Position numbers and translations under genes: made by a program
Notes under the pieces: model-generated
Database searches by the model: none
What the model saw: only the letters and a program-made list of their open reading frames with translations
What the model was told of the DNA's origin: nothing
From: a virus
Taxonomy: Duplodnaviria; Heunggongvirae; Uroviricota; Caudoviricetes
Direction: 5' to 3' (one strand)
Virus record (IMG/VR): IMGVR_UViG_2558860170_000007
DNA length: 48,271 bases
Part shown: positions 31,267 through 47,283 of the stretch, piece after piece
Layout of the letters: each line of letters opens with the position of its first letter
How positions within the stretch are numbered: the stretch's first letter is position 1

Positions 31267-32599
31267 ATTGGATTTGCCCCTATATTTCCAGACATCTGTT
31301 ATCACTTAACCCATTACAAGCCCGCTGCCGCAGATATTCCCGTGGCGAGCGATAACCCAGCGCACTATGCGGATGCCATTCGTTATAATGCTCGAACGCC
31401 TCTGCAAGGTTCTTTGCTGCCGTTAACCCGTCTGGTTTGGGCATGATACTGATGTAGTCACGCTTTATCGTTTTCACGAAGCTCTCTGCTATTCCGTTAC
31501 TCTCCGGACTCCGCACCGCCGTGTTCTTCGGTTCAAGTCCCAACATCCGGGCGAACTGGCGTGTTTCATTAGCCCGGTAGCATGAACCATTATCCGTCAG
31601 CCACTCCACTGGAGACGACGGAAGATCGTTGCCGAAGCGGCGTTCCACCGCTCCCAGCATGACGTCCTGTACTGTTTCACTGTTGAAGCCGCCGGTAGTC
31701 ACCGCCCAGTGCAGTGCCTCACGATCACAGCAGTCCAGCGCGAACGTGACACGCAGTCTCTCTCCGTTATCACAGCAGAACTCGAACCCGTCAGAGCACC
31801 ATCGCTGATTGCTTTCTTTCACGGCCACTCTGCCTGTATGTGCCCGTTTCGATGGCGGTACAGCAGGTTTTCGCTCAAGCAACAGCGCATTCTGGCGCAT
31901 GATCCGGTAAACACGTTTGGCATTGATCGCAGGCATACCATCAAGTTCTGCCTGTCTGCGAAGCAGCGCCCATACCCGACGATAACCATACGTGGGCAGC
32001 TCTCCGATAACATGGTGTATACGGAGAAGCACATCCGTATCATCAGTGTGACGACTGCGGCGGCCATCCATCCAGTCATCGGTTCGTCTGAGAATGACGT
32101 GCAACTGCGCACGCGACACCCGGAGACAACGGCTGACTAAGCTTACTCCCCATCCCCGGGCAATAAGGGCGCGTGCGCTATCCACTTTTTTGCCCGTCCA
32201 TATTCAACGGCTTCTTTGAGGAGTTCATTTTCCATCGTTTTCTTGCCGAGCAGGCGCTGGAGTTCTTTAATCTGCTTCATGGCGGCAGCAAGTTCAGAGG
32301 CAGGAACAACCTGTTCTCCGGCGGCGACAGCAGTAAGACTTCCTTCCTGGTATTGCTTACGCCAGAGAAATAACTGGCTGGCTGCTACACCATGTTGCCG
32401 GGCAACGAGGGAGACCGTCATCCCCGGTTCAAAGCTCTGCTGAACAATTGCGATCTTTTCCTGTGTGGTACGCCGTCTGCGTTTCTCCGGCCCTAAGACA
32501 TCAATCATCTGTACTCCAATGACTAGTCTAAAAACTAGTATTAAGACTATCACTTATTTAAGTGATACTGGTTGTCTGGAGATTCAGGGGGCCAGTCTA
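31267..32599 (-). mobile_element. IS2 (1333 bp), complete copy with 5-bp target duplication
   Basis: Ends TGGATTTGCCCCTATATTTCCAGACA (31267 onward) and TAGACTGGCCCCCTGAATCTCCAGACA (reverse complement ending at 32599); InsC-type OrfA (32143..32553) and InsD-type OrfB (31280..32185) on the minus strand; direct repeat ACGAT at 31262-31266 and 32600-32604. Confidence 0.9.
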
Positions 32600-35335: not shown

Positions 35336-36103
35336 GGTGATGCTGCCAACTTACTGATTTAGTGTATGATGGTGTTTTTGAGGTGCTCCAGTGGCTTCTG
35401 TTTCTATCAGCTGTCCCTCCTGTTCAGCTACTGACGGGGTGGTGCGTAACGGCAAAAGCACTGCCGGACATCAGCGCTATCTCTGCTCTCACTGCCGTAA
35501 AACATGGCAACTGCAGTTCACTTACACCGCTTCTCAACCCGGTACGCACCAGAAAATCATTGATATGGCCATGAATGGCGTTGGATGCCGGGCAACTGCA
35601 CGCATTATGGGCGTTGGCCTCAACACGATTTTACGTCACTTAAAAAACTCAGGCCGCAGTCGGTAACCTCGCGCATACAGCCGGGCAGTGACGTCATCGT
35701 CTGCGCGGAAATGGACGAACAGTGGGGCTATGTCGGGGCTAAATCGCGCCAGCGCTGGCTGTTTTACGCGTATGACAGTCTCCGGAAGACGGTTGTTGCG
35801 CACGTATTCGGTGAACGCACTATGGCGACGCTGGGGCGTCTTATGAGCCTGCTGTCACCCTTTGACGTGGTGATATGGATGACGGATGGCTGGCCGCTGT
35901 ATGAATCCCGCCTGAAGGGAAAGCTGCACGTAATCAGCAAGCGATATACGCAGCGAATTGAGCGGCATAACCTGAATCTGAGGCAGCACCTGGCACGGCT
36001 GGGACGGAAGTCGCTGTCGTTCTCAAAATCGGTGGAGCTGCATGACAAAGTCATCGGGCATTATCTGAACATAAAACACTATCAATAAGTTGGAGTCATT
36101 ACC
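35336..36103 (+). mobile_element. IS1 (768 bp), complete copy with 8-bp target duplication
   Basis: IRL GGTGATGCTGCC at 35336, IRR ...GTCATTACC ending 36103; insA 35391..35666 and insB 35585..36088; direct repeat CCAATTTT at 35328-35335 and 36104-36111. Confidence 0.95.
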
Positions 36104-40705: not shown

Positions 40706-41144
40706 TTATGTTGCCATGCGAAGTATGCATGGCTGCATGTCTGCCTTCCATTTAAAATGGGCTAAGACCTATAACCCTAAATATTATTCTTTATTATCTT
40801 CTTTACCACTTCGGTGATGCTGCCAACTTACTGATTTAGTGTATGATGGTGTTTTTGAGGTGCTCCAGTGGCTTCTGTTTCTATCAGCTGTCCCTCCTGT
40901 TCAGCTACTGACGGGGTGGTGCGTAACGGCAAAAGCACTGCCGGACATCAGCGCTATCTCTGCTCTCACTGCCGTAAAACATGGCAACTGCAGTTCACTT
41001 ACACCGCTTCTCAACCCGGTACGCACCAGAAAATCATTGATATTGTCAGCGCCAGTGATATAAGACGGTAATTCGCCATTTGGATTGTCCGCTCCACCCA
41101 ACATGTTGTTTCCTTAAGGTTCTCACACCAGAAAGGACATCAAC

Positions 41145-43114
<1,970 letters not shown>

Positions 43115-43714
43115 CGAAAGTATTTAGCGGGCATGAAAATGGCAAATAACGGTCAAACATCGTGGCGTTGACAATATGGCCATGAATGGCGTTGGATGCC
43201 GGGCAACTGCACGCATTATGGGCGTTGGCCTCAACACGATTTTACGTCACTTAAAAAACTCAGGCCGCAGTCGGTAACCTCGCGCATACAGCCGGGCAGT
43301 GACGTCATCGTCTGCGCGGAAATGGACGAACAGTGGGGCTATGTCGGGGCTAAATCGCGCCAGCGCTGGCTGTTTTACGCGTATGACAGTCTCCGGAAGA
43401 CGGTTGTTGCGCACGTATTCGGTGAACGCACTATGGCGACGCTGGGGCGTCTTATGAGCCTGCTGTCACCCTTTGACGTGGTGATATGGATGACGGATGG
43501 CTGGCCGCTGTATGAATCCCGCCTGAAGGGAAAGCTGCACGTAATCAGCAAGCGATATACGCAGCGAATTGAGCGGCATAACCTGAATCTGAGGCAGCAC
43601 CTGACACGGCTGGGACGGAAGTCGCTGTCGTTCTCAAAATCGGTGGAGCTGCATGACAAAGTCATCGGGCATTATCTGAACATAAAACACTATCAATAAG
43701 TTGGAGTCATTACC

Positions 43715-43776
43715 CGCTTGCAGTAACGGCGAAAGGGGCAATGACAGCGCTGCCATGTCGACAAGAACTGGAATAG
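43715..43776 (+). pseudogene. cscK: Fructokinase CscK, 3'-terminal fragment (last 20 codons)
   Basis: Frame ...ALAVTAKGAMTALPCRQELE-stop directly after the IS1 right end; begins with the 9-bp sequence CGCTTGCAG that is also found (inverted) beside the IS1 at 48052-48060. Confidence 0.6.
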
Positions 43777-43847
43777 TGAGAAGTAAACGGCGAAGTCGCT
43801 CTTATCTCTAAATAGGACGTGAATTTTTTAACGACAGGTAGGTAATT

Positions 43848-45095
43848 ATGGCACTGAATATTCCATTCAGAAATGCGTACTATCGTTTTGCATCCAGTTA
43901 CTCATTTCTCTTTTTTATTTCCTGGTCGCTGTGGTGGTCGTTATACGCTATTTGGCTGAAAGGACATCTAGGATTGACAGGGACGGAATTAGGTACACTT
44001 TATTCGGTCAACCAGTTTACCAGCATTCTATTTATGATGTTCTACGGCATCGTTCAGGATAAACTCGGTCTGAAGAAACCGCTCATCTGGTGTATGAGTT
44101 TCATCCTGGTCTTGACCGGACCGTTTATGATTTACGTTTATGAACCGTTACTGCAAAGCAATTTTTCTGTAGGTCTAATTCTGGGAGCGCTCTTTTTTGG
44201 CCTGGGGTATCTGGCGGGATGCGGTTTGCTTGACAGCTTCACCGAAAAAATGGCGCGAAATTTTCATTTCGAATATGGAACAGCGCGCGCCTGGGGATCT
44301 TTTGGCTATGCTATTGGCGCGTTCTTTGCCGGCATATTTTTTAGTATCAGTCCCCATATCAACTTCTGGTTGGTCTCGCTATTTGGCGCTGTATTTATGA
44401 TGATCAACATGTGTTTTAAAGATAAGGATCACCAGTGCGTAGCGGCGGATGCGGGAGGGGTAAAAAAAGAGGATTTTATCGCAGTTTTCAAGGATCGAAA
44501 CTTCTGGGTTTTCGTCATATTTATTGTGGGGACGTGGTCTTTCTATAACATTTTTGATCAACAACTTTTTCCTGTCTTTTATGCAGGTTTATTCGAATCA
44601 CACGATGTAGGAACGCGCCTGTATGGTTATCTCAACTCATTCCAGGTGGTACTCGAAGCGCTATGCATGGCGATTATTCCTTTCTTTGTGAATCGGGTAG
44701 GGCCAAAAAATGCATTACTTATCGGTGTTGTGATTATGGCGTTGCGTATCCTTTCCTGCGCGCTGTTCGTTAACCCCTGGATTATTTCATTAGTGAAGCT
44801 GTTACATGCCATTGAGGTTCCACTTTGTGTCATATCCGTCTTCAAATACAGCGTGGCAAATTTTGATAAGCGCCTGTCGTCGACGATCTTTCTGATTGGT
44901 TTTCAAATTGCCAGTTCGCTTGGGATTGTGCTGCTTTCAACGCCGACTGGGATACTCTTTGACCACGCAGGCTACCAGACAGTTTTCTTCGCAATTTCGG
45001 GTATTGTCTGCCTAATGTTGCTATTTGGCATTTTCTTCCTGAGTAAAAAACGCGAGCAAATAGTTATGGAAACGCCTGTACCTTCAGCAATATAG
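43848..45095 (+). CDS. cscB: Sucrose:H+ symporter CscB (LacY-family oligosaccharide/H+ symporter)
   Basis: 415 aa, 12 predicted TM helices, MALNIPFRNAYYRFASSYSFLFFISWSLWWSLYAIWLKGHLGLTG... recalled as CscB; it is separated from the 5' part of cscK and from the csc promoter. Confidence 0.85.
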   Translation: MALNIPFRNAYYRFASSYSFLFFISWSLWWSLYAIWLKGHLGLTGTELGTLYSVNQFTSILFMMFYGIVQDKLGLKKPLIWCMSFILVLTGPFMIYVYEPLLQSNFSVGLILGALFFGLGYLAGCGLLDSFTEKMARNFHFEYGTARAWGSFGYAIGAFFAGIFFSISPHINFWLVSLFGAVFMMINMCFKDKDHQCVAADAGGVKKEDFIAVFKDRNFWVFVIFIVGTWSFYNIFDQQLFPVFYAGLFESHDVGTRLYGYLNSFQVVLEALCMAIIPFFVNRVGPKNALLIGVVIMALRILSCALFVNPWIISLVKLLHAIEVPLCVISVFKYSVANFDKRLSSTIFLIGFQIASSLGIVLLSTPTGILFDHAGYQTVFFAISGIVCLMLLFGIFFLSKKREQIVMETPVPSAI

Positions 45096-45535
45096 ACGTA
45101 AACTTTTCCGGTTGTTGTCGATATCTCCCTATCCCTCAACCGGAAAATAATAATACTAAAGTGCTTAGCCCGGCTAATAATCACCTAATCCAAACGCCTC
45201 ATTCATGTTCTGGTACAGTCGCTCAAATGTACTTCAGATGCGCGGTTCGCTGATTTCCAGGACATTGTCGTCATTCAGCGACCTGTCCCGTGTATCACGG
45301 TCCTGCGAATTCATCAAGGAATGCATTGCGGAGTGAAGTATCGAGTCACGCCATATTTCGCTATCAGGATTCTGTGTGATGGTTACATCGCCCGGCCCAG
45401 GGCTGTTTAGTCATCAGCGCTTTCTGACAGTGCTGAGATTTCAACCTGTTGCAGTAAAAATGAGTAGATATAAGGCAAGTGTGCTGCCAAACCCATCTTT
45501 TACGGGGTGAAGGTAGATTTCGTTTGAAGGGTATC

Positions 45536-45550
45536 TGGTGTCCCCTGCAG
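45536..45550 (-). repeat. att-like copy of the argW 3' end (15 nt, CTGCAGGGGACACCA)
   Basis: Exact 15-nt match to the last 15 nt of argW (2635-2649) in inverted orientation; partial similarity extends a few more bases. Confidence 0.55.
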
Positions 45551-45623
45551 ACATCTACTTGAGGCGGCAGGGGATTGATTGGAATGCTGTTTTTTAGATT
45601 TGAAAAATATTTTACCCGCTATT

Positions 45624-45824
45624 TTACCCATTGGCGCGGCTTAAGAGCTTATTTTTGAATTCACAATGGTCACGATATAACCATCTTGCTCGTCCGTGGA
45701 TAACTTTGGCTTTAGGCAGGTCGCCGGACTTAATCCGGTCATAGATGAAGGTCTTACCGAAGCCAGTATCAGCCATGATGAATTTCAAATCAACCAGTGA
45801 ATCAGGTTGTAGTTCGTGTTGCAT
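45624..45824 (-). CDS. alpA: AlpA-family small DNA-binding protein (prophage regulatory/excisionase-like HTH)
   Basis: 66-aa ORF; ...GFGKTFIYDRIKSGDLPKAKVIHGRARWLYRDHCEF... resembles the AlpA/Xis HTH family; the start may be the internal Met at 45779. Confidence 0.6.
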   Translation of the reverse strand: MQHELQPDSLVDLKFIMADTGFGKTFIYDRIKSGDLPKAKVIHGRARWLYRDHCEFKNKLLSRANG

Positions 45825-45843
45825 GAGTGCTATCTCCGAATAT

Positions 45844-45858
45844 GGAATCGAACCTGCA
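45844..45858 (-). repeat. Second argW-like fragment (T-arm region, GCAGGTTCGATTCC)
   Basis: Reverse complement reads ...CTGATTTGCAGGTTCGATTCC, matching the argW T-arm (2617-2634) apart from a few upstream mismatches; lies immediately upstream of the alpA-like start. Confidence 0.45.
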
Positions 45859-45946
45859 AATCAGGCAATAAAAAGCCGCATTGATGCAGCAATGGTAGGT
45901 CTGGATATCTTGAGAAATGAACAGGCCTCATCGAGTGTGAGGCGGG

Positions 45947-46291
45947 TTAGTCCTTGCGTAGCTCGCTGATTCTTCTGTAAGTCTCTGGTGCTTTGTTCCC
46001 GTACGTCTTCATTTCAGACTTCAACAGAGCAACGAGTGAATCCCATTCGTTGAGGATTCCTTTGAATGCCGGAACGCGCTTTGCAACCTTGTCGAATGAA
46101 TCTCTGATTTCTGGAATCTGCTCAACAAGTGCAACGCATCGCCGAAAGTCTGCTGCGTCATGGGGAGCGCCGAAGTGATGACCATAGATATTCTTTTTCA
46201 GGCCACATGCGATTGAGGCAAGAGTTGCGCTACTGATGCCGACATCGCCAGTTGATTGCCATTTCAAAACCTTCATAGCCAAATCTGACAT
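45947..46291 (-). CDS. Hypothetical protein (114 aa), no family recognised
   Basis: ORF with plausible start; divergently arranged with the downstream membrane protein gene. Confidence 0.4.
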   Translation of the reverse strand: MSDLAMKVLKWQSTGDVGISSATLASIACGLKKNIYGHHFGAPHDAADFRRCVALVEQIPEIRDSFDKVAKRVPAFKGILNEWDSLVALLKSEMKTYGNKAPETYRRISELRKD

Positions 46292-46532
46292 TTCTTGTCT
46301 CCATAAAACAAAACTCGCCGTAGCGAGCTCAGATAAAAGAAATCCCCGTCAGTGCGAGGATGCTGTTCATTGCTGCTATACACTTTTTTGCTCTCAACGT
46401 AAGCGGTAGCCCATTCTGTTGGGTTGGTCAGTTGCTTTTAGGAAATGCTCTTTACCCCTTAAACGTCGGCTGAAAGAGCTAAAATCCATGCAAAAAATTT
46501 ACGCAATTTTGTGTATTATTGTGCAGTAAGTA

Positions 46533-47135
46533 ATGAGCTATTTTCTGTGCAAAAAATGGATGATAAATTTGTCCGGGGCAGGAAAAATTTTATGGGCGCT
46601 AAACATGAAAAAAGATTCGTATCCTTATTTGATTTGCATGACAGTTTCAGGGCTGATCTTTATTTTCCTTTTCTTCTGGTGGCGGGCAGATATCTACAGG
46701 GTCACGTTTCTTAATCAGAGTATATCCCACTATTACATTCTGTTTAGCATGGGAATAGCTTTTCTGTTATCTCTGTTTTGGGTTAAGAAGGGGATAGTAA
46801 AACAAAGCGGCTGGAAGAGTCTGTCAGCATACCTTAAGGTTTATGCAGGGATATGCATATTTTCTGGATTTTTTCTGATTATACCCCTTACAACACTAAC
46901 TTATTTTTTGCCTGGAGAGACATCGTCTTATGTTGCACCGTATCGGTATACTTCCGGTAGTTCAAAAAGTTGTTCTGGAGCTGAGGTGGATGACCCCGAT
47001 CTACATGAGAATATTCGCATTTGCTATCCGTATGGCAATTATGAGTACGATAATATTATCTATGTTGAAAAGAAAATTAATACATTAGGTGCGGTAGTGA
47101 CATATGCACAGACCGCGCGTGATGATACTGAATGA
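46533..47135 (+). CDS. Hypothetical membrane protein (about 4 N-terminal TM helices plus Cys/Tyr-rich C-terminal domain)
   Basis: 200-aa AT-rich ORF; start uncertain (alternatives at 46560 and 46605); C-terminal region contains ...CSGAEVDDPDLHENIRICYPYGNYEYDNIIYVEKK... Confidence 0.45.
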   Translation: MSYFLCKKWMINLSGAGKILWALNMKKDSYPYLICMTVSGLIFIFLFFWWRADIYRVTFLNQSISHYYILFSMGIAFLLSLFWVKKGIVKQSGWKSLSAYLKVYAGICIFSGFFLIIPLTTLTYFLPGETSSYVAPYRYTSGSSKSCSGAEVDDPDLHENIRICYPYGNYEYDNIIYVEKKINTLGAVVTYAQTARDDTE

Positions 47136-47283
47136 GATAGTATATAGCGGGCAAGTTTTAGTTAATTTATCGAGGTAATATAATTTACCTCGACTCGTTT
47201 ATTCTGGTATGAATATTTCGCTTTACGATCGATTTTTATCTGATGATATCATGCGGTTTTCATATACTGACTTACTGTCTTTT

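What the first reader, a model, noticed from the sequence alone, without database searches (positions are those of the whole stretch)
45536..45858. Two argW 3'-half-like fragments in inverted orientation flanking an alpA-like gene: displaced att site(s) of the argW island
A 15-nt exact copy of the argW 3' end (CTGCAGGGGACACCA) lies on the minus strand at 45536-45550, and an argW T-arm-like stretch (…TTGCAGGTTCGATTCC) on the minus strand at 45844-45858, with the 66-aa AlpA-like ORF between them. tRNA-targeting integrases duplicate the tRNA 3' end at the far boundary of the island. Finding this repeat inverted relative to argW (2575-2649) fits the IS1-mediated inversion of the 43.7-48.0 kb segment and would mark the original right end of the argW-integrated element. 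The two separate fragments may reflect serial integrations.
Basis: partly seen in the sequence, partly recalled or inferred. Interest (0 to 1): 0.6.

Follow-up and report, generated by a model that had tools for sequence, protein, structure and literature searches.

The report
Prophage attR site flipped by IS1
The 15-base copy of the argW tRNA end is the well-known right-hand attachment site (attR) of a KplE1/HK620-type prophage, next to its excisionase gene torI and turned around by an IS1-mediated inversion. The second tRNA-like piece is a conserved part of the phage's own torI leader, not a second integration scar.

Summary
Both matches are real: 15 nt at 45536-45550(-) and 16 nt at 45844-45859(-), each identical to argW. 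The 66-aa ORF between them is TorI, 100% identical to the K-12 KplE1/CPS-53 excisionase. Comparing an empty site, attL and attR shows that the 15-mer is exactly the identity segment where bacterial and phage flanks switch. It is therefore the attR core of the argW prophage, annotated "pawZ" in K-12. It is inverted because the 3.6-kb segment 43715-47283 (cscK', cscB, attR, torI, two phage ORFs) lies between inverted IS1 copies whose outer flanks carry the same 9-bp cscK target in inverted orientation. An intact relative has attL and attR as direct repeats. The window has also lost 9.25 kb of prophage early genes.

The "serial integrations" idea fails. The T-arm-like piece travels inside virion DNA of HK620 and Sf6, 18 nt upstream of the torI start codon. 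It lies outside the 135-bp attR that suffices for excision in vitro. Its core, CAGGTTCGATT(C/T)C, is conserved 4-7 nt upstream of the xis ribosome-binding site (13 nt in Serratia) in several genera. Its function is unknown. It may be an operator, since it contains TorI's GTTCG recognition core.

Overall this is a known system in a rearranged, defective copy.

The parts
2575..2649 (+). argW, tRNA-Arg(CCU), the integration target
   Evidence: ARAGORN; sequence
2635..2650 (+). attL core. The full 16-mer CTGCAGGGGACACCAT is the identity segment shared with attR and attB.
   Evidence: 16-nt core stated in PMC2951348
2651..2810 (+). P' arm of attL, overlapping the intS promoter. TorI sites I1-I5 by homology to K-12: 2655-2662, 2675-2682, 2718-2725, 2728-2735, 2738-2745 (cores GTTCG, GTCCG, GATCG). 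TAAA-containing IntS arm sites at about 2766-2808.
   Evidence: sequence compared with K-12 and with site descriptions and positions in PMC2951348. The site assignment is by homology and was not tested here.
2811..3968 (+). intS integrase, 385 aa, intact
   Evidence: 383/385 identical to K-12 IntS; Pfam Arm-DNA-bind_3, Phage_int_M and Phage_integrase
40813..43714 (+). IS1-C, left boundary of the inversion. It is split by an IS21-family element (41049-43173; IstA 41145-42317, IstB 42314-43114).
   Evidence: repeat families; junction sequences; Pfam rve, Mu-transpos_C_2 and IstB_IS21
43715..47283 (.). Inverted 3569-bp segment: cscK 3' end, cscB, attR, torI and two phage ORFs
   Evidence: matches intact relatives on the opposite strand from the rest of the prophage
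43715..43723 (+). 9-bp cscK target copy CGCTTGCAG abutting the IRR end of IS1-C
   Evidence: overlap at L001 20001-20009
43715..43776 (+). last 62 nt of cscK, now inverted
   Evidence: mapped onto the L001 annotation
43848..45095 (+). cscB sucrose/oligosaccharide MFS transporter, the chromosomal gene flanking attR
   Evidence: Pfam LacY_symp
45096..45535 (.). Bacterial (B-side) flank of attR. The 440 bp next to the core are 99% identical to the empty-site genome, right up to the core.
   Evidence: 0.993 identity to L039 over 440 bp
45536..45550 (-). attR core (15 of the 16 core nt), equivalent to 'pawZ' in K-12
45551..45623 (-). Phage (P-side) arm between the torI stop and the core. This is the part of attR used in vitro. 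The 11 nt next to the core keep a weak in-register T-loop remnant.
   Evidence: attR primers in PMC3509656
45624..45824 (-). torI, the recombination directionality factor (excisionase), 66 aa, intact
   Evidence: 100% identical to K-12 TorI; PDB 1z4h; annotation
45832..45837 (-). torI Shine-Dalgarno GGAGAT
   Evidence: sequence; conserved in 10 of 11 leaders (GGAG in all)
45844..45859 (-). T-arm-like element TTGCAGGTTCGATTCC in the torI leader. Its family-wide core is CAGGTTCGATT(C/T)C.
45865..45890 (-). terminator-like hairpin plus T-run just upstream of the T-arm-like element
45947..47135 (.). two phage ORFs of unknown function (114 aa on the minus strand, 200 aa on the plus strand), the innermost prophage DNA of the inverted segment
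   Evidence: no Pfam hit
47284..48051 (-). IS1-D, right boundary of the inversion, in inverted orientation relative to IS1-C
48052..48271 (-). Remainder of cscK in its ancestral orientation. It begins with CTGCAAGCG, the reverse complement of the 9-bp target copy. It runs off the window.

Best explanation
The window holds a defective lambdoid prophage integrated at argW by the KplE1/HK620/Sf6-type IntS/TorI recombination module.

First fragment. The 15-mer at 45536-45550 is the attR core. It is the copy of the argW 3' end left at the far junction when IntS exchanged strands inside CTGCAGGGGACACCA(T). torI, the excisionase, sits 73 nt inside the prophage from this core, as in every member of the family.

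Inversion. The 3.6-kb block that carries the 62-nt cscK 3' end, cscB, attR, torI and two phage ORFs was later inverted between two oppositely oriented IS1 copies. Either an IS1 inserted into cscK and then recombined with an inverted IS1 in the prophage, or a single intramolecular replicative IS1 transposition did it. Both routes give the same structure. An IS1-adjacent deletion also removed 9.25 kb of early genes. As a result attL and attR are now inverted repeats about 42.9 kb apart. By inference, the still-intact IntS and TorI could only invert the interval, not excise it.

Second fragment. The piece at 45844-45859 is not an att site. It is a phage-encoded extra copy of the argW T-arm sequence sitting 6 nt upstream of the torI Shine-Dalgarno. 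It is conserved as primary sequence across genera. My best guess, which is inference only, is that it is a protein-binding operator controlling the uncharacterised expression of torI. TorI itself is the prime candidate binder, because its experimentally defined recognition core GTTCG lies at the centre of the motif.
For: Core as att site.
- The three-way comparison of empty-site attB (L039), window attL and window attR shares exactly the 15-mer, and the flanks switch at its edges.
- The 440 bp on the cscB side of the core are 99% identical to the empty site.
- Phage homology (HK620, Sf6, Kapi1 and others) stops exactly at the end of the core.
- Homology between K-12 and the window also stops there.
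- K-12 annotates the same 15 nt as pawZ at the end of CPS-53.
- The literature gives the 16-nt core CTGCAGGGGACACCAT (PMC2951348) and a 17-bp duplication for Kapi1 (PMC8787464).

Proteins. TorI is 100% and IntS 99% identical to K-12.

Inversion.
- The strand of the match flips only for 43715-47283, against two intact relatives.
- Inverted IS1 copies flank that segment.
- The 9-bp CGCTTGCAG and its reverse complement sit at the two junctions.
- The intact relative JNEC-KY177 has both cores in the same orientation.
- L121 4072-13324 is missing from the window.

T-arm-like element.
- It is contiguous with hkaC/torI and the annotated attP core in HK620 and Sf6.
- GTTCGATT(C/T)C is invariant in 11 leaders from Escherichia, Enterobacter, Citrobacter, Serratia, Pantoea, Edwardsiella, an Erwinia phage and a Salmonella phage. 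It always lies 4-7 nt (13 nt in Serratia) from GGAG, while the spacers are saturated with changes.
- Midgardsormr38 has two tandem copies.
- TorI sites have the core GTTCG, and PtorI is described as 'non-characterized' (PMC2951348).
Against: - The source strain is unidentified, and no complete E. coli genome in the collection has the phage-IS1-cscK junction. The orientation therefore rests on this assembly alone. A segment between identical IS1 copies can be mis-oriented in an assembly, or can exist as both isomers in a culture.
- The operator idea is weak. GTTCG is intrinsic to any T-loop, only a single site is present in most lineages, and the flanking bases (AG..A) differ from the I1-I5 consensus (CA..C/T).
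- Many TorI homologues lack the motif altogether.
- Within E. coli prophages the motif picks up point changes about as often as its flanks.
- No promoter-like site was found next to the motif.
Confidence: 0.9

Rival explanations
1. Serial integration. The two fragments are attR scars of two successive argW-targeting elements, and the torI gene belongs to a remnant of the first.
For: argW is used by several element types with identity blocks of different length: 19 nt for a CP4-like island and a decayed pseudo-argW of about 33 nt for a resolvase-bearing island. The CUS-3 GenBank record annotates the 16-nt T-arm repeat as 'attL/attR core'.
Against: The T-arm copy, torI and the core are one contiguous block in the packaged genomes of HK620 and Sf6, with int following. 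All three therefore leave and enter together, and the crossover is at the 3' core. The T-arm copy is followed by the torI leader, not by the rest of the tRNA 3' end as a true attR would be. It lies outside the 135-bp functional attR. The CUS-3 integrase begins at nt 192 of the record, the same offset from the T-arm as intS has in K-12. That suggests the record was simply trimmed at the first repeat found.
Confidence: 0.03
2. Split identity block. An ancestral attP carried at least 30 nt of the argW 3' end, and a torI cassette of about 0.28 kb inserted into it. The two fragments are then the two halves of one att sequence.
For: In Escherichia the fragments tile argW exactly...GATTCC|TGCAGG..., sharing one C. 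In Serratia and in Pantoea sp. BAV 3049 (L020) the T-arm copy runs 2 nt further (CCTG), overlapping the start of the core.
Against: The P-side flank directly next to the core already holds its own in-register T-loop remnant: TTCGAT at the same offset from TGCAGG as in argW, 6-7 of 11 matches in most lineages. The upstream piece is therefore a second copy. Many TorI modules have the core but no upstream T-arm copy. Midgardsormr38 has two copies.
Confidence: 0.08
3. The T-arm-like piece is a neutral relic or a generic T-loop resemblance with no present function.
For: GGTTCGAWTCC is common to many tRNAs. Many TorI homologues lack the motif. Point variants occur in E. coli prophages. There is no conserved RNA fold and no Rfam hit.
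Against: An exact 16-mer is not expected by chance. Ten to thirteen nucleotides stay invariant in leaders whose neighbouring spacer positions are saturated with substitutions and whose xis genes differ by up to about 50% in protein sequence. The distance to the SD is also fixed.
Confidence: 0.25
4. The T-arm-like piece acts at the RNA level in the torI leader, for example by weak sequestration of the SD by UUCC, or as a T-arm mimic recognised by tRNA-handling enzymes. Alternatively it is part of a cII-activated promoter, as annotated for HK620.
For: It is always on the sense strand at a fixed short distance from GGAG. UUCC/GGAG pairing is possible in all sequences. Some lineages can form a T-arm-like hairpin (Edwardsiella GACAGG...CCTGTC, Serratia CAGG...CCTG). 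HK620 annotates TTGC-N5-TTGC plus a promoter over this stretch. A terminator lies just upstream and no sigma-70 promoter is found, which suggests read-through or activator-dependent expression.
Against: The consensus fold is only -1 kcal/mol with no compensatory changes. The hairpin is absent in Escherichia. The second TTGC of the cII box is not conserved outside Escherichia.
Confidence: 0.15

Closest known systems
KplE1 (CPS-53) prophage attR / 'pawZ' with torI in E. coli K-12 (Panis, Ansaldi and co-workers)
   Same: Same core sequence. TorI is identical and IntS 99% identical. torI and the core are the same distance apart. The same T-arm-like copy lies 18 nt upstream of the torI start codon. 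The attL architecture is the same.
   Different: Here attR is inverted relative to attL by an IS1 event. The right-hand chromosomal flank is cscB rather than dsdC, so the 16th core base is G rather than T. The prophage body is a lambdoid of about 40 kb rather than the 10-kb KplE1 remnant.
attP-int-xis modules of phages HK620, Sf6 and Kapi1 (P22-like, argW-integrating)
   Same: The block from the T-arm copy through hkaC/torI to the attP core is 96-97% identical to the window, and homology ends at the core. The att site was defined experimentally for Kapi1 (PMC8787464).
   Different: Those are podoviruses with the module intact and circularly contiguous. The window has the same module on a siphovirus-type lambdoid prophage, with the att halves separated and one of them flipped.
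IS1-mediated inversions and adjacent deletions (homologous recombination between inverted copies, or intramolecular replicative transposition)
   Same: Inverted IS1 copies bound the segment. The 9-bp target duplication is split between the two copies in inverted orientation. The deletion junction next to IS1-C lacks a target duplication.
   Different: Nothing unusual, except that the event separates a site-specific recombination site from its partner's orientation.
CUS-3 prophage 'attL/attR core' annotation (GenBank CP000711)
   Same: The annotated 16-nt core is exactly the T-arm repeat TTGCAGGTTCGATTCC seen here.
   Different: That annotation conflicts with HK620, Sf6, KplE1 and Kapi1. Here and in those phages the crossover is in the 3' 15-16-mer. 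The T-arm repeat is merely the first direct repeat one meets.

Membership tests
KplE1/HK620/Sf6-type IntS-TorI recombination module at argW | Duplicated core CTGCAGGGGACACCA(T) at both prophage ends, one copy being the argW 3' end | tested here: met
   16/16 at attL and 15/16 at attR; core as given in PMC2951348
KplE1/HK620/Sf6-type IntS-TorI recombination module at argW | Bacterial and phage flanks switch exactly at the core when attB, attL and attR are compared | tested here: met
   three-way comparison with the empty-site locus L039
KplE1/HK620/Sf6-type IntS-TorI recombination module at argW | RDF gene torI adjacent to attR, and integrase intS adjacent to attL with its promoter inside attL | tested here: met
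   TorI 66/66 and IntS 383/385 identical to K-12; the attL sequence is colinear with K-12
KplE1/HK620/Sf6-type IntS-TorI recombination module at argW | attL and attR are direct repeats, as required for excision | tested here: not met
   The cores are on opposite strands. They are direct in K-12 and JNEC-KY177. This window is a rearranged member of the family.
KplE1/HK620/Sf6-type IntS-TorI recombination module at argW | Recombination activity (excision or integration) | not testable with these tools
   needs an in vivo or in vitro assay
Second att site / serial-integration scar (for 45844-45859) | Lies at a boundary between element DNA and non-element DNA in related genomes | tested here: not met
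   It is internal to the packaged HK620 and Sf6 genomes, and phage sequence continues on both sides.
Second att site / serial-integration scar (for 45844-45859) | tRNA-derived identity runs on to the tRNA 3' end | tested here: not met
   Identity stops after ...GATTCC, and the torI leader follows.
Second att site / serial-integration scar (for 45844-45859) | Is part of the DNA needed for recombination | tested here: not met
   By the published primers, the 135-bp attR used for in-vitro excision starts inside the torI 3' end and excludes it (PMC3509656). A need for it in integration was not tested.
AlpA family (Pfam PF05930 Phage_AlpA) | Score at or above the Pfam gathering threshold | tested here: not met
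   12.7 bits against a cut-off of 21, E = 0.12; HTH_17 scores 16.9 against 27. TorI is a winged-helix excisionase with its own solved structure, 1z4h.
IS1-mediated inversion | Segment bounded by inverted IS1 copies, with the target-site duplication split between them in inverted orientation | tested here: met
   IS1-C and IS1-D are 100% complementary over 541 nt. CGCTTGCAG sits at 43715-43723 and its reverse complement at 48052-48060.
tRNA gene or pseudogene | Recognisable tRNA structure | tested here: not met
   ARAGORN finds only argW, and Rfam gives no hit in 45300-46100 at E up to 10. The fragments are 15 and 16 nt long.
TorI binding site (I-site) | GTTCG/GATCG/GTCCG core within an 8-mer of the type YRGWYCGY, usually in arrays about 10 or 20 bp apart | tested here: inconclusive
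   The GTTCG core is present. Its flanks (AG..A) match I4 (TGGTTCGC) at 6 of 8 positions. It is a single copy in most lineages, with two copies 17 nt apart in Midgardsormr38. Binding was not tested.

The most novel reading that the evidence does not exclude
The conserved T-arm mimic CAGGTTCGATT(C/T)C, placed 4-7 nt upstream of the xis/torI ribosome-binding site (13 nt in Serratia) in many enterobacterial IntS/TorI modules, is an undescribed cis-regulatory element. Through it TorI (via GTTCG), or IntS (as a copy of its attB-side core half-site), would control RDF production. That would supply the missing control point of the 'non-characterized' torI expression that decides prophage excision.
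Probability: 0.3. Interest if true: 0.4.

Novelty: already known. Interest (0 to 1): 0.2.

Why it matters
For annotation, this fixes the true right boundary of the argW prophage. It also shows that the element is locked in. Its att sites are inverted and its immunity and replication region is deleted, so it cannot excise even though intS and torI are intact.

It also flags an inconsistency in public records. CUS-3 is annotated with the T-arm repeat as its att core, whereas HK620, Sf6, KplE1 and Kapi1 use the 3' 15-17-mer.

The only open biological point is the conserved T-arm-like element in the torI leader. If it is functional, it would be a handle on how RDF expression, the step that commits these prophages to excision, is controlled.

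Tried and rejected
- Split 30-nt att block with torI inserted. I considered this because the fragments tile argW. I rejected it as the main reading because an in-register T-loop remnant sits next to the core in most lineages.
- Conserved RNA structure in the torI leader. RNAalifold gives only a 4-bp UUCC/GGAG helix at -1 kcal/mol with no covariation.
- Rfam at E up to 10 gives nothing.
- Sigma-70 promoter scan upstream of torI finds none, only terminator-like hairpins.
- Viral-contig scan with a TorI profile, meant to find modules aimed at other tRNAs. The 80 loci returned all encode identical E. coli TorI, so there was no diversity gain. It was useful only for population variants.
- Identifying the source strain. 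The junction search found no complete E. coli genome with this configuration, and the cscB protein is too widespread to help.
- H67 as a possible pre-inversion state. Its IS1 is at another site, between cscB and cscK.
- The primary papers Panis 2007 (JBC), King 2007 (CUS-3) and Moritz and Welch 2006 are not held. A literature search for the 16-mer found nothing.
- A TorI-like inverted site in torI codons 3-5 (CACGAACTA) is specific to Escherichia and is explained by coding, so I dropped it.

Full report
OBSERVATION. Both sequence matches exist. CTGCAGGGGACACCA occurs only at 2635-2649(+), the 3' end of argW, and at 45536-45550(-). Even with two mismatches allowed, 100 shuffles give a mean of 0.06 matches. 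TTGCAGGTTCGATTCC occurs only at 2620-2635(+), in the argW T-arm, and at 45844-45859(-), with a shuffle mean of 0.01. ARAGORN finds a single tRNA in the window, tRNA-Arg(CCU) at 2575-2649. The 66-aa ORF 45624-45824(-) lies between the two fragments. In argW the two fragments are adjacent and share only the C at 2635, so together they tile the last 30 nt of the tRNA.

WHAT THE ORF AND THE 15-MER ARE. The ORF is torI, the recombination directionality factor (excisionase) of the KplE1/CPS-53 prophage. RefSeq annotates it as such in thousands of E. coli genomes. It is 66/66 identical to K-12 TorI and to the solved structure 1z4h. It scores below the Pfam AlpA threshold, 12.7 bits against 21, so 'AlpA-like' is only a loose description.

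In K-12 the order is argW(+), intS(+), then torI(+), followed by a 15-nt feature 'pawZ' at the end of CPS-53. Alignment of the K-12 and window regions shows near-identity from upstream of the T-arm copy through torI to the end of the 15-mer, and unrelated sequence immediately after it: the dsdC side in K-12 and the cscB side here.

The decisive test is a three-way comparison:
- An empty-site genome (L039: cscB, argW, yfdC, mlaA) reads cscB-flank + TGGTGTCCCCTGCAG + rest of argW.
- The window's attR reads the same cscB-flank + 15-mer + phage DNA (torI side).
- The window's attL reads phage DNA (intS side) + 15-mer + rest of argW.

The 440 bp on the cscB side of the core are 99% identical between the window and the empty site. 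Phage genomes HK620, Sf6, Kapi1 and others match the window from just upstream of the T-arm copy to exactly the last base of the core. HK620 and Sf6 annotate this 16-mer as the attP core. The literature states that KplE1 is bordered by the duplicated 16-nt CTGCAGGGGACACCAT (PMC2951348) and that Kapi1 shows a 17-bp duplication at the argW 3' end (PMC8787464).

WHY IT IS INVERTED. The window contains four IS1 copies:
- 5430-6197(-).
- 35336-36103(+).
- 40813-43714(+), itself interrupted by an IS21-family element at 41049-43173 (IstA and IstB).
- 47284-48051(-).

Against two intact relatives (CEA224S, locus L001; JNEC-KY177, locus L121), the window is colinear on one strand from argW to the nin region (2574-40813). 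It is on the opposite strand for 43715-47283, and back on the first strand for 48052-48271. In JNEC-KY177 a 47-kb lambdoid prophage runs from cscB/core/torI to intS/tRNA-Arg, with both cores and both T-arm copies in the same orientation. Direct repeats are therefore the ancestral state.

The 9 bp CGCTTGCAG of cscK abut IS1-C at 43715-43723, and their reverse complement abuts IS1-D at 48052-48060. This is what results from an IS1 insertion into cscK followed by recombination with an inverted IS1, or from one intramolecular replicative transposition. The two routes cannot be told apart from the product. The flanks on the other sides (TACCACTTC at IS1-C, AAAAGACAG for IS1-D in the IS's own orientation) do not match. 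In addition 9.25 kb of early genes (L121 4072-13324, TraR/DksA to replication protein P) are absent, which indicates an IS1-adjacent deletion.

No complete E. coli genome in the collection has the phage-IS1-cscK junction. The configuration is thus specific to a strain or lineage, and the source remains unidentified.

Inference. With IntS (383/385 identical to K-12) and TorI intact but the att cores inverted and 42.9 kb apart, site-specific recombination would invert the interval rather than excise it. The prophage is immobilised and also lacks its immunity and replication genes.

THE SECOND FRAGMENT. The T-arm-like 16-mer is not a second att site.
- It is present at the same place, 18 nt upstream of the torI start codon, in K-12 KplE1.
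- It is present in the packaged genomes of HK620 and Sf6, where it is contiguous with hkaC/torI, the attP core and int. It therefore enters and leaves the chromosome with the phage.
- Identity to argW stops after ...GATTCC, and the torI leader follows.
- The attR substrate that supports in-vitro excision is 135 bp, from the torI 3' end to about 35 nt past the core, and so excludes it (primers in PMC3509656).

The CUS-3 GenBank record annotates exactly this 16-mer as 'attL core' and 'attR core', and ends there. Given the other phages, this looks like trimming at the first direct repeat met rather than a different crossover.

I considered that the two fragments are halves of one 30-nt att block split by torI. 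However, the P-side flank next to the core keeps its own T-loop remnant in register: TTCGAT at the same offset from TGCAGG as in argW, in Citrobacter, Pantoea, Rouxiella, Midgardsormr38 and others, and weaker in Escherichia. The upstream piece is therefore an additional copy.

CONSERVATION OF THE T-ARM-LIKE ELEMENT. I collected TorI homologues from one genome per species (24 loci) and from phages. A core CAGGTTCGATT(C/T)C is found upstream of xis in these sources:
- Escherichia, Enterobacter, Citrobacter and Serratia.
- Pantoea sp. BAV 3049 and P. stewartii.
- Edwardsiella.
- Erwinia phage Midgardsormr38, with two tandem copies.
- Salmonella phage Emek, as AAGTTCGATTCC.

It is always on the sense strand, 4-7 nt (13 in Serratia) before GGAG, which is 8-9 nt before ATG. 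GTTCGATT is invariant in 11 leaders, while the spacer between motif and SD and the stretch between SD and ATG are saturated with changes. The motif is absent from other homologues: Dryocola, Tatumella, Rouxiella, Arsenophonus, several Pantoea, and phages Chronis and vB_EhrS_49. It is therefore not essential to xis function. Among 80 viral contigs with identical TorI, four carry a point change within the decamer, which is similar to neighbouring positions.

No conserved RNA fold is detected and there is no Rfam hit. No sigma-70-like promoter lies between the terminator-like hairpin at 45890-45875 and torI. HK620 annotates a cII box (TTGC-N5-TTGC) and an 'integration' promoter over this stretch, but the second TTGC is not conserved outside Escherichia.

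The experimentally defined TorI sites in attL have the cores GTTCG, GATCG and GTCCG, and the torI promoter is described as non-characterised (PMC2951348). My best guess is that the element is a protein-binding operator for RDF expression, with TorI or possibly IntS as the binder, since the sequence duplicates the attB-side flank of the core. This guess rests on primary-sequence conservation, a fixed distance to the SD and one case of tandem duplication. It is inference only.

COMPARISON AND NOVELTY. The att core, torI, intS and their arrangement belong to the published KplE1/HK620/Sf6 module. The only defining feature not met is the direct orientation of attL and attR, which a secondary IS1 rearrangement explains. 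IS1 inversions and adjacent deletions are ordinary. The finding is therefore already known biology in a rearranged, defective copy. The one unexplained item is the conserved T-arm mimic in the xis leader. I found no description of it in the papers I could read (a search for the 16-mer returned nothing; the primary 2007 att-site paper is not held).

VERDICT. Interest is low (0.2). The most novel reading still open is a cis-regulatory T-arm mimic controlling excisionase expression, with probability about 0.3 and moderate interest if true.

Noticed in passing
window 45844-45859(-); L007 1984-2015; L010 2002-2013; L011-L025 about 2470-2482: A T-arm mimic CAGGTTCGATT(C/T)C is conserved 4-7 nt upstream of the xis/torI SD across several enterobacterial genera and phages (13 nt in Serratia), with two tandem copies in Erwinia phage Midgardsormr38. 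It is absent from other TorI homologues. Function unknown.
   Followed up: partly
window 45550-45560(-); attR/attP flanks of L015-L032, L007-L010: The phage-side flank directly next to the att core keeps TTCGAT in register with the argW T-loop (…TTCGATGTA|TGCAGG…) in most lineages. attP also reads GATGTC-TGCAGGG-GACACC, an imperfect inverted repeat around a 7-nt stretch. This may outline the IntS core-type sites and the overlap region.
   Followed up: partly
L003 1521-1536 and L006 1-16 (GenBank CP000711, CUS-3): The CUS-3 record annotates the 16-nt T-arm repeat TTGCAGGTTCGATTCC as the attL/attR core and ends before torI. HK620, Sf6, KplE1 and Kapi1 place the core in the 3' 15-17-mer. This is probably an annotation boundary error that leaves torI and the true attR out of the record.
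   Followed up: partly
L035/L036 5689-5707; L037/L038 about 5690-5730: Other islands abut the same cscB flank. A CP4-like island (CbeA, DUF987, RadC, antirestriction) has 19 nt of argW identity (core + GAAT). A resolvase-bearing island has a decayed pseudo-argW of about 33 nt (GCTAATT-TTTCGATTCCTGCAGG-GACACCA, with 5-nt and 1-nt deletions). At least three element types therefore use argW with identity blocks of different length.
   Followed up: partly
window 40813-43714: IS1-C is interrupted by an IS21-family element (41049-43173; IstA 390 aa, IstB 266 aa). The two IS1 pieces overlap by 9 nt in IS1 coordinates, consistent with a target duplication.
   Followed up: partly
window 40804-40812 and 47275-47283; L121 4072-13324: The inner IS1 junctions lack a matching target duplication, and 9.25 kb of prophage early genes (TraR/DksA, exo, bet, gam, repressor region, replication O/P) are missing. 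This points to an IS1-adjacent deletion, and the prophage is defective.
   Followed up: yes
window 5430-6197 and 35336-36103: There are two more IS1 copies. IS1-B is a simple insertion with an 8-bp duplication (CCAATTTT). IS1-A has no target duplication and sits between the intS region and the tail-fibre genes, where the window has no BLAST match of 150 bp or more to the intact relative over about 3973-6965. This may be another IS1-associated rearrangement.
   Followed up: partly
window 4265-4630(+) and 31321-31605: There is an rve/rve_3 transposase fragment (an IS3-family remnant) downstream of intS. A 285-nt inverted repeat of 74% identity links it to a 301-aa ORF at 31280-32185(-), possibly a second, diverged IS3-family copy inside the prophage.
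   Followed up: no
window 6947-30010: The IntS/TorI module, best known from P22-like podoviruses (HK620, Sf6, Kapi1, CUS-3), is attached here to a lambda-like siphovirus late region (terminase, portal, tape measure, J-like tail tip). This is an example of module mosaicism across morphotypes.
   Followed up: partly
window 2621-2745: The GTTCG of the argW T-loop lies 31 nt upstream of the GTTCG of TorI site I1. It is roughly in helical phase (multiples of about 10.3 bp) with I1-I5 (offsets 31, 51, 94, 104, 114 nt in K-12 numbering). It may be coincidence or an unrecognised extra TorI contact in attL.
   Followed up: no
L122 3021-3718 (E. coli isolate 602, OW968111): An independent IS1 insertion lies between cscB and cscK in another strain, next to the same torI/attR. 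The csc-attR junction seems to attract IS1 repeatedly.
   Followed up: partly
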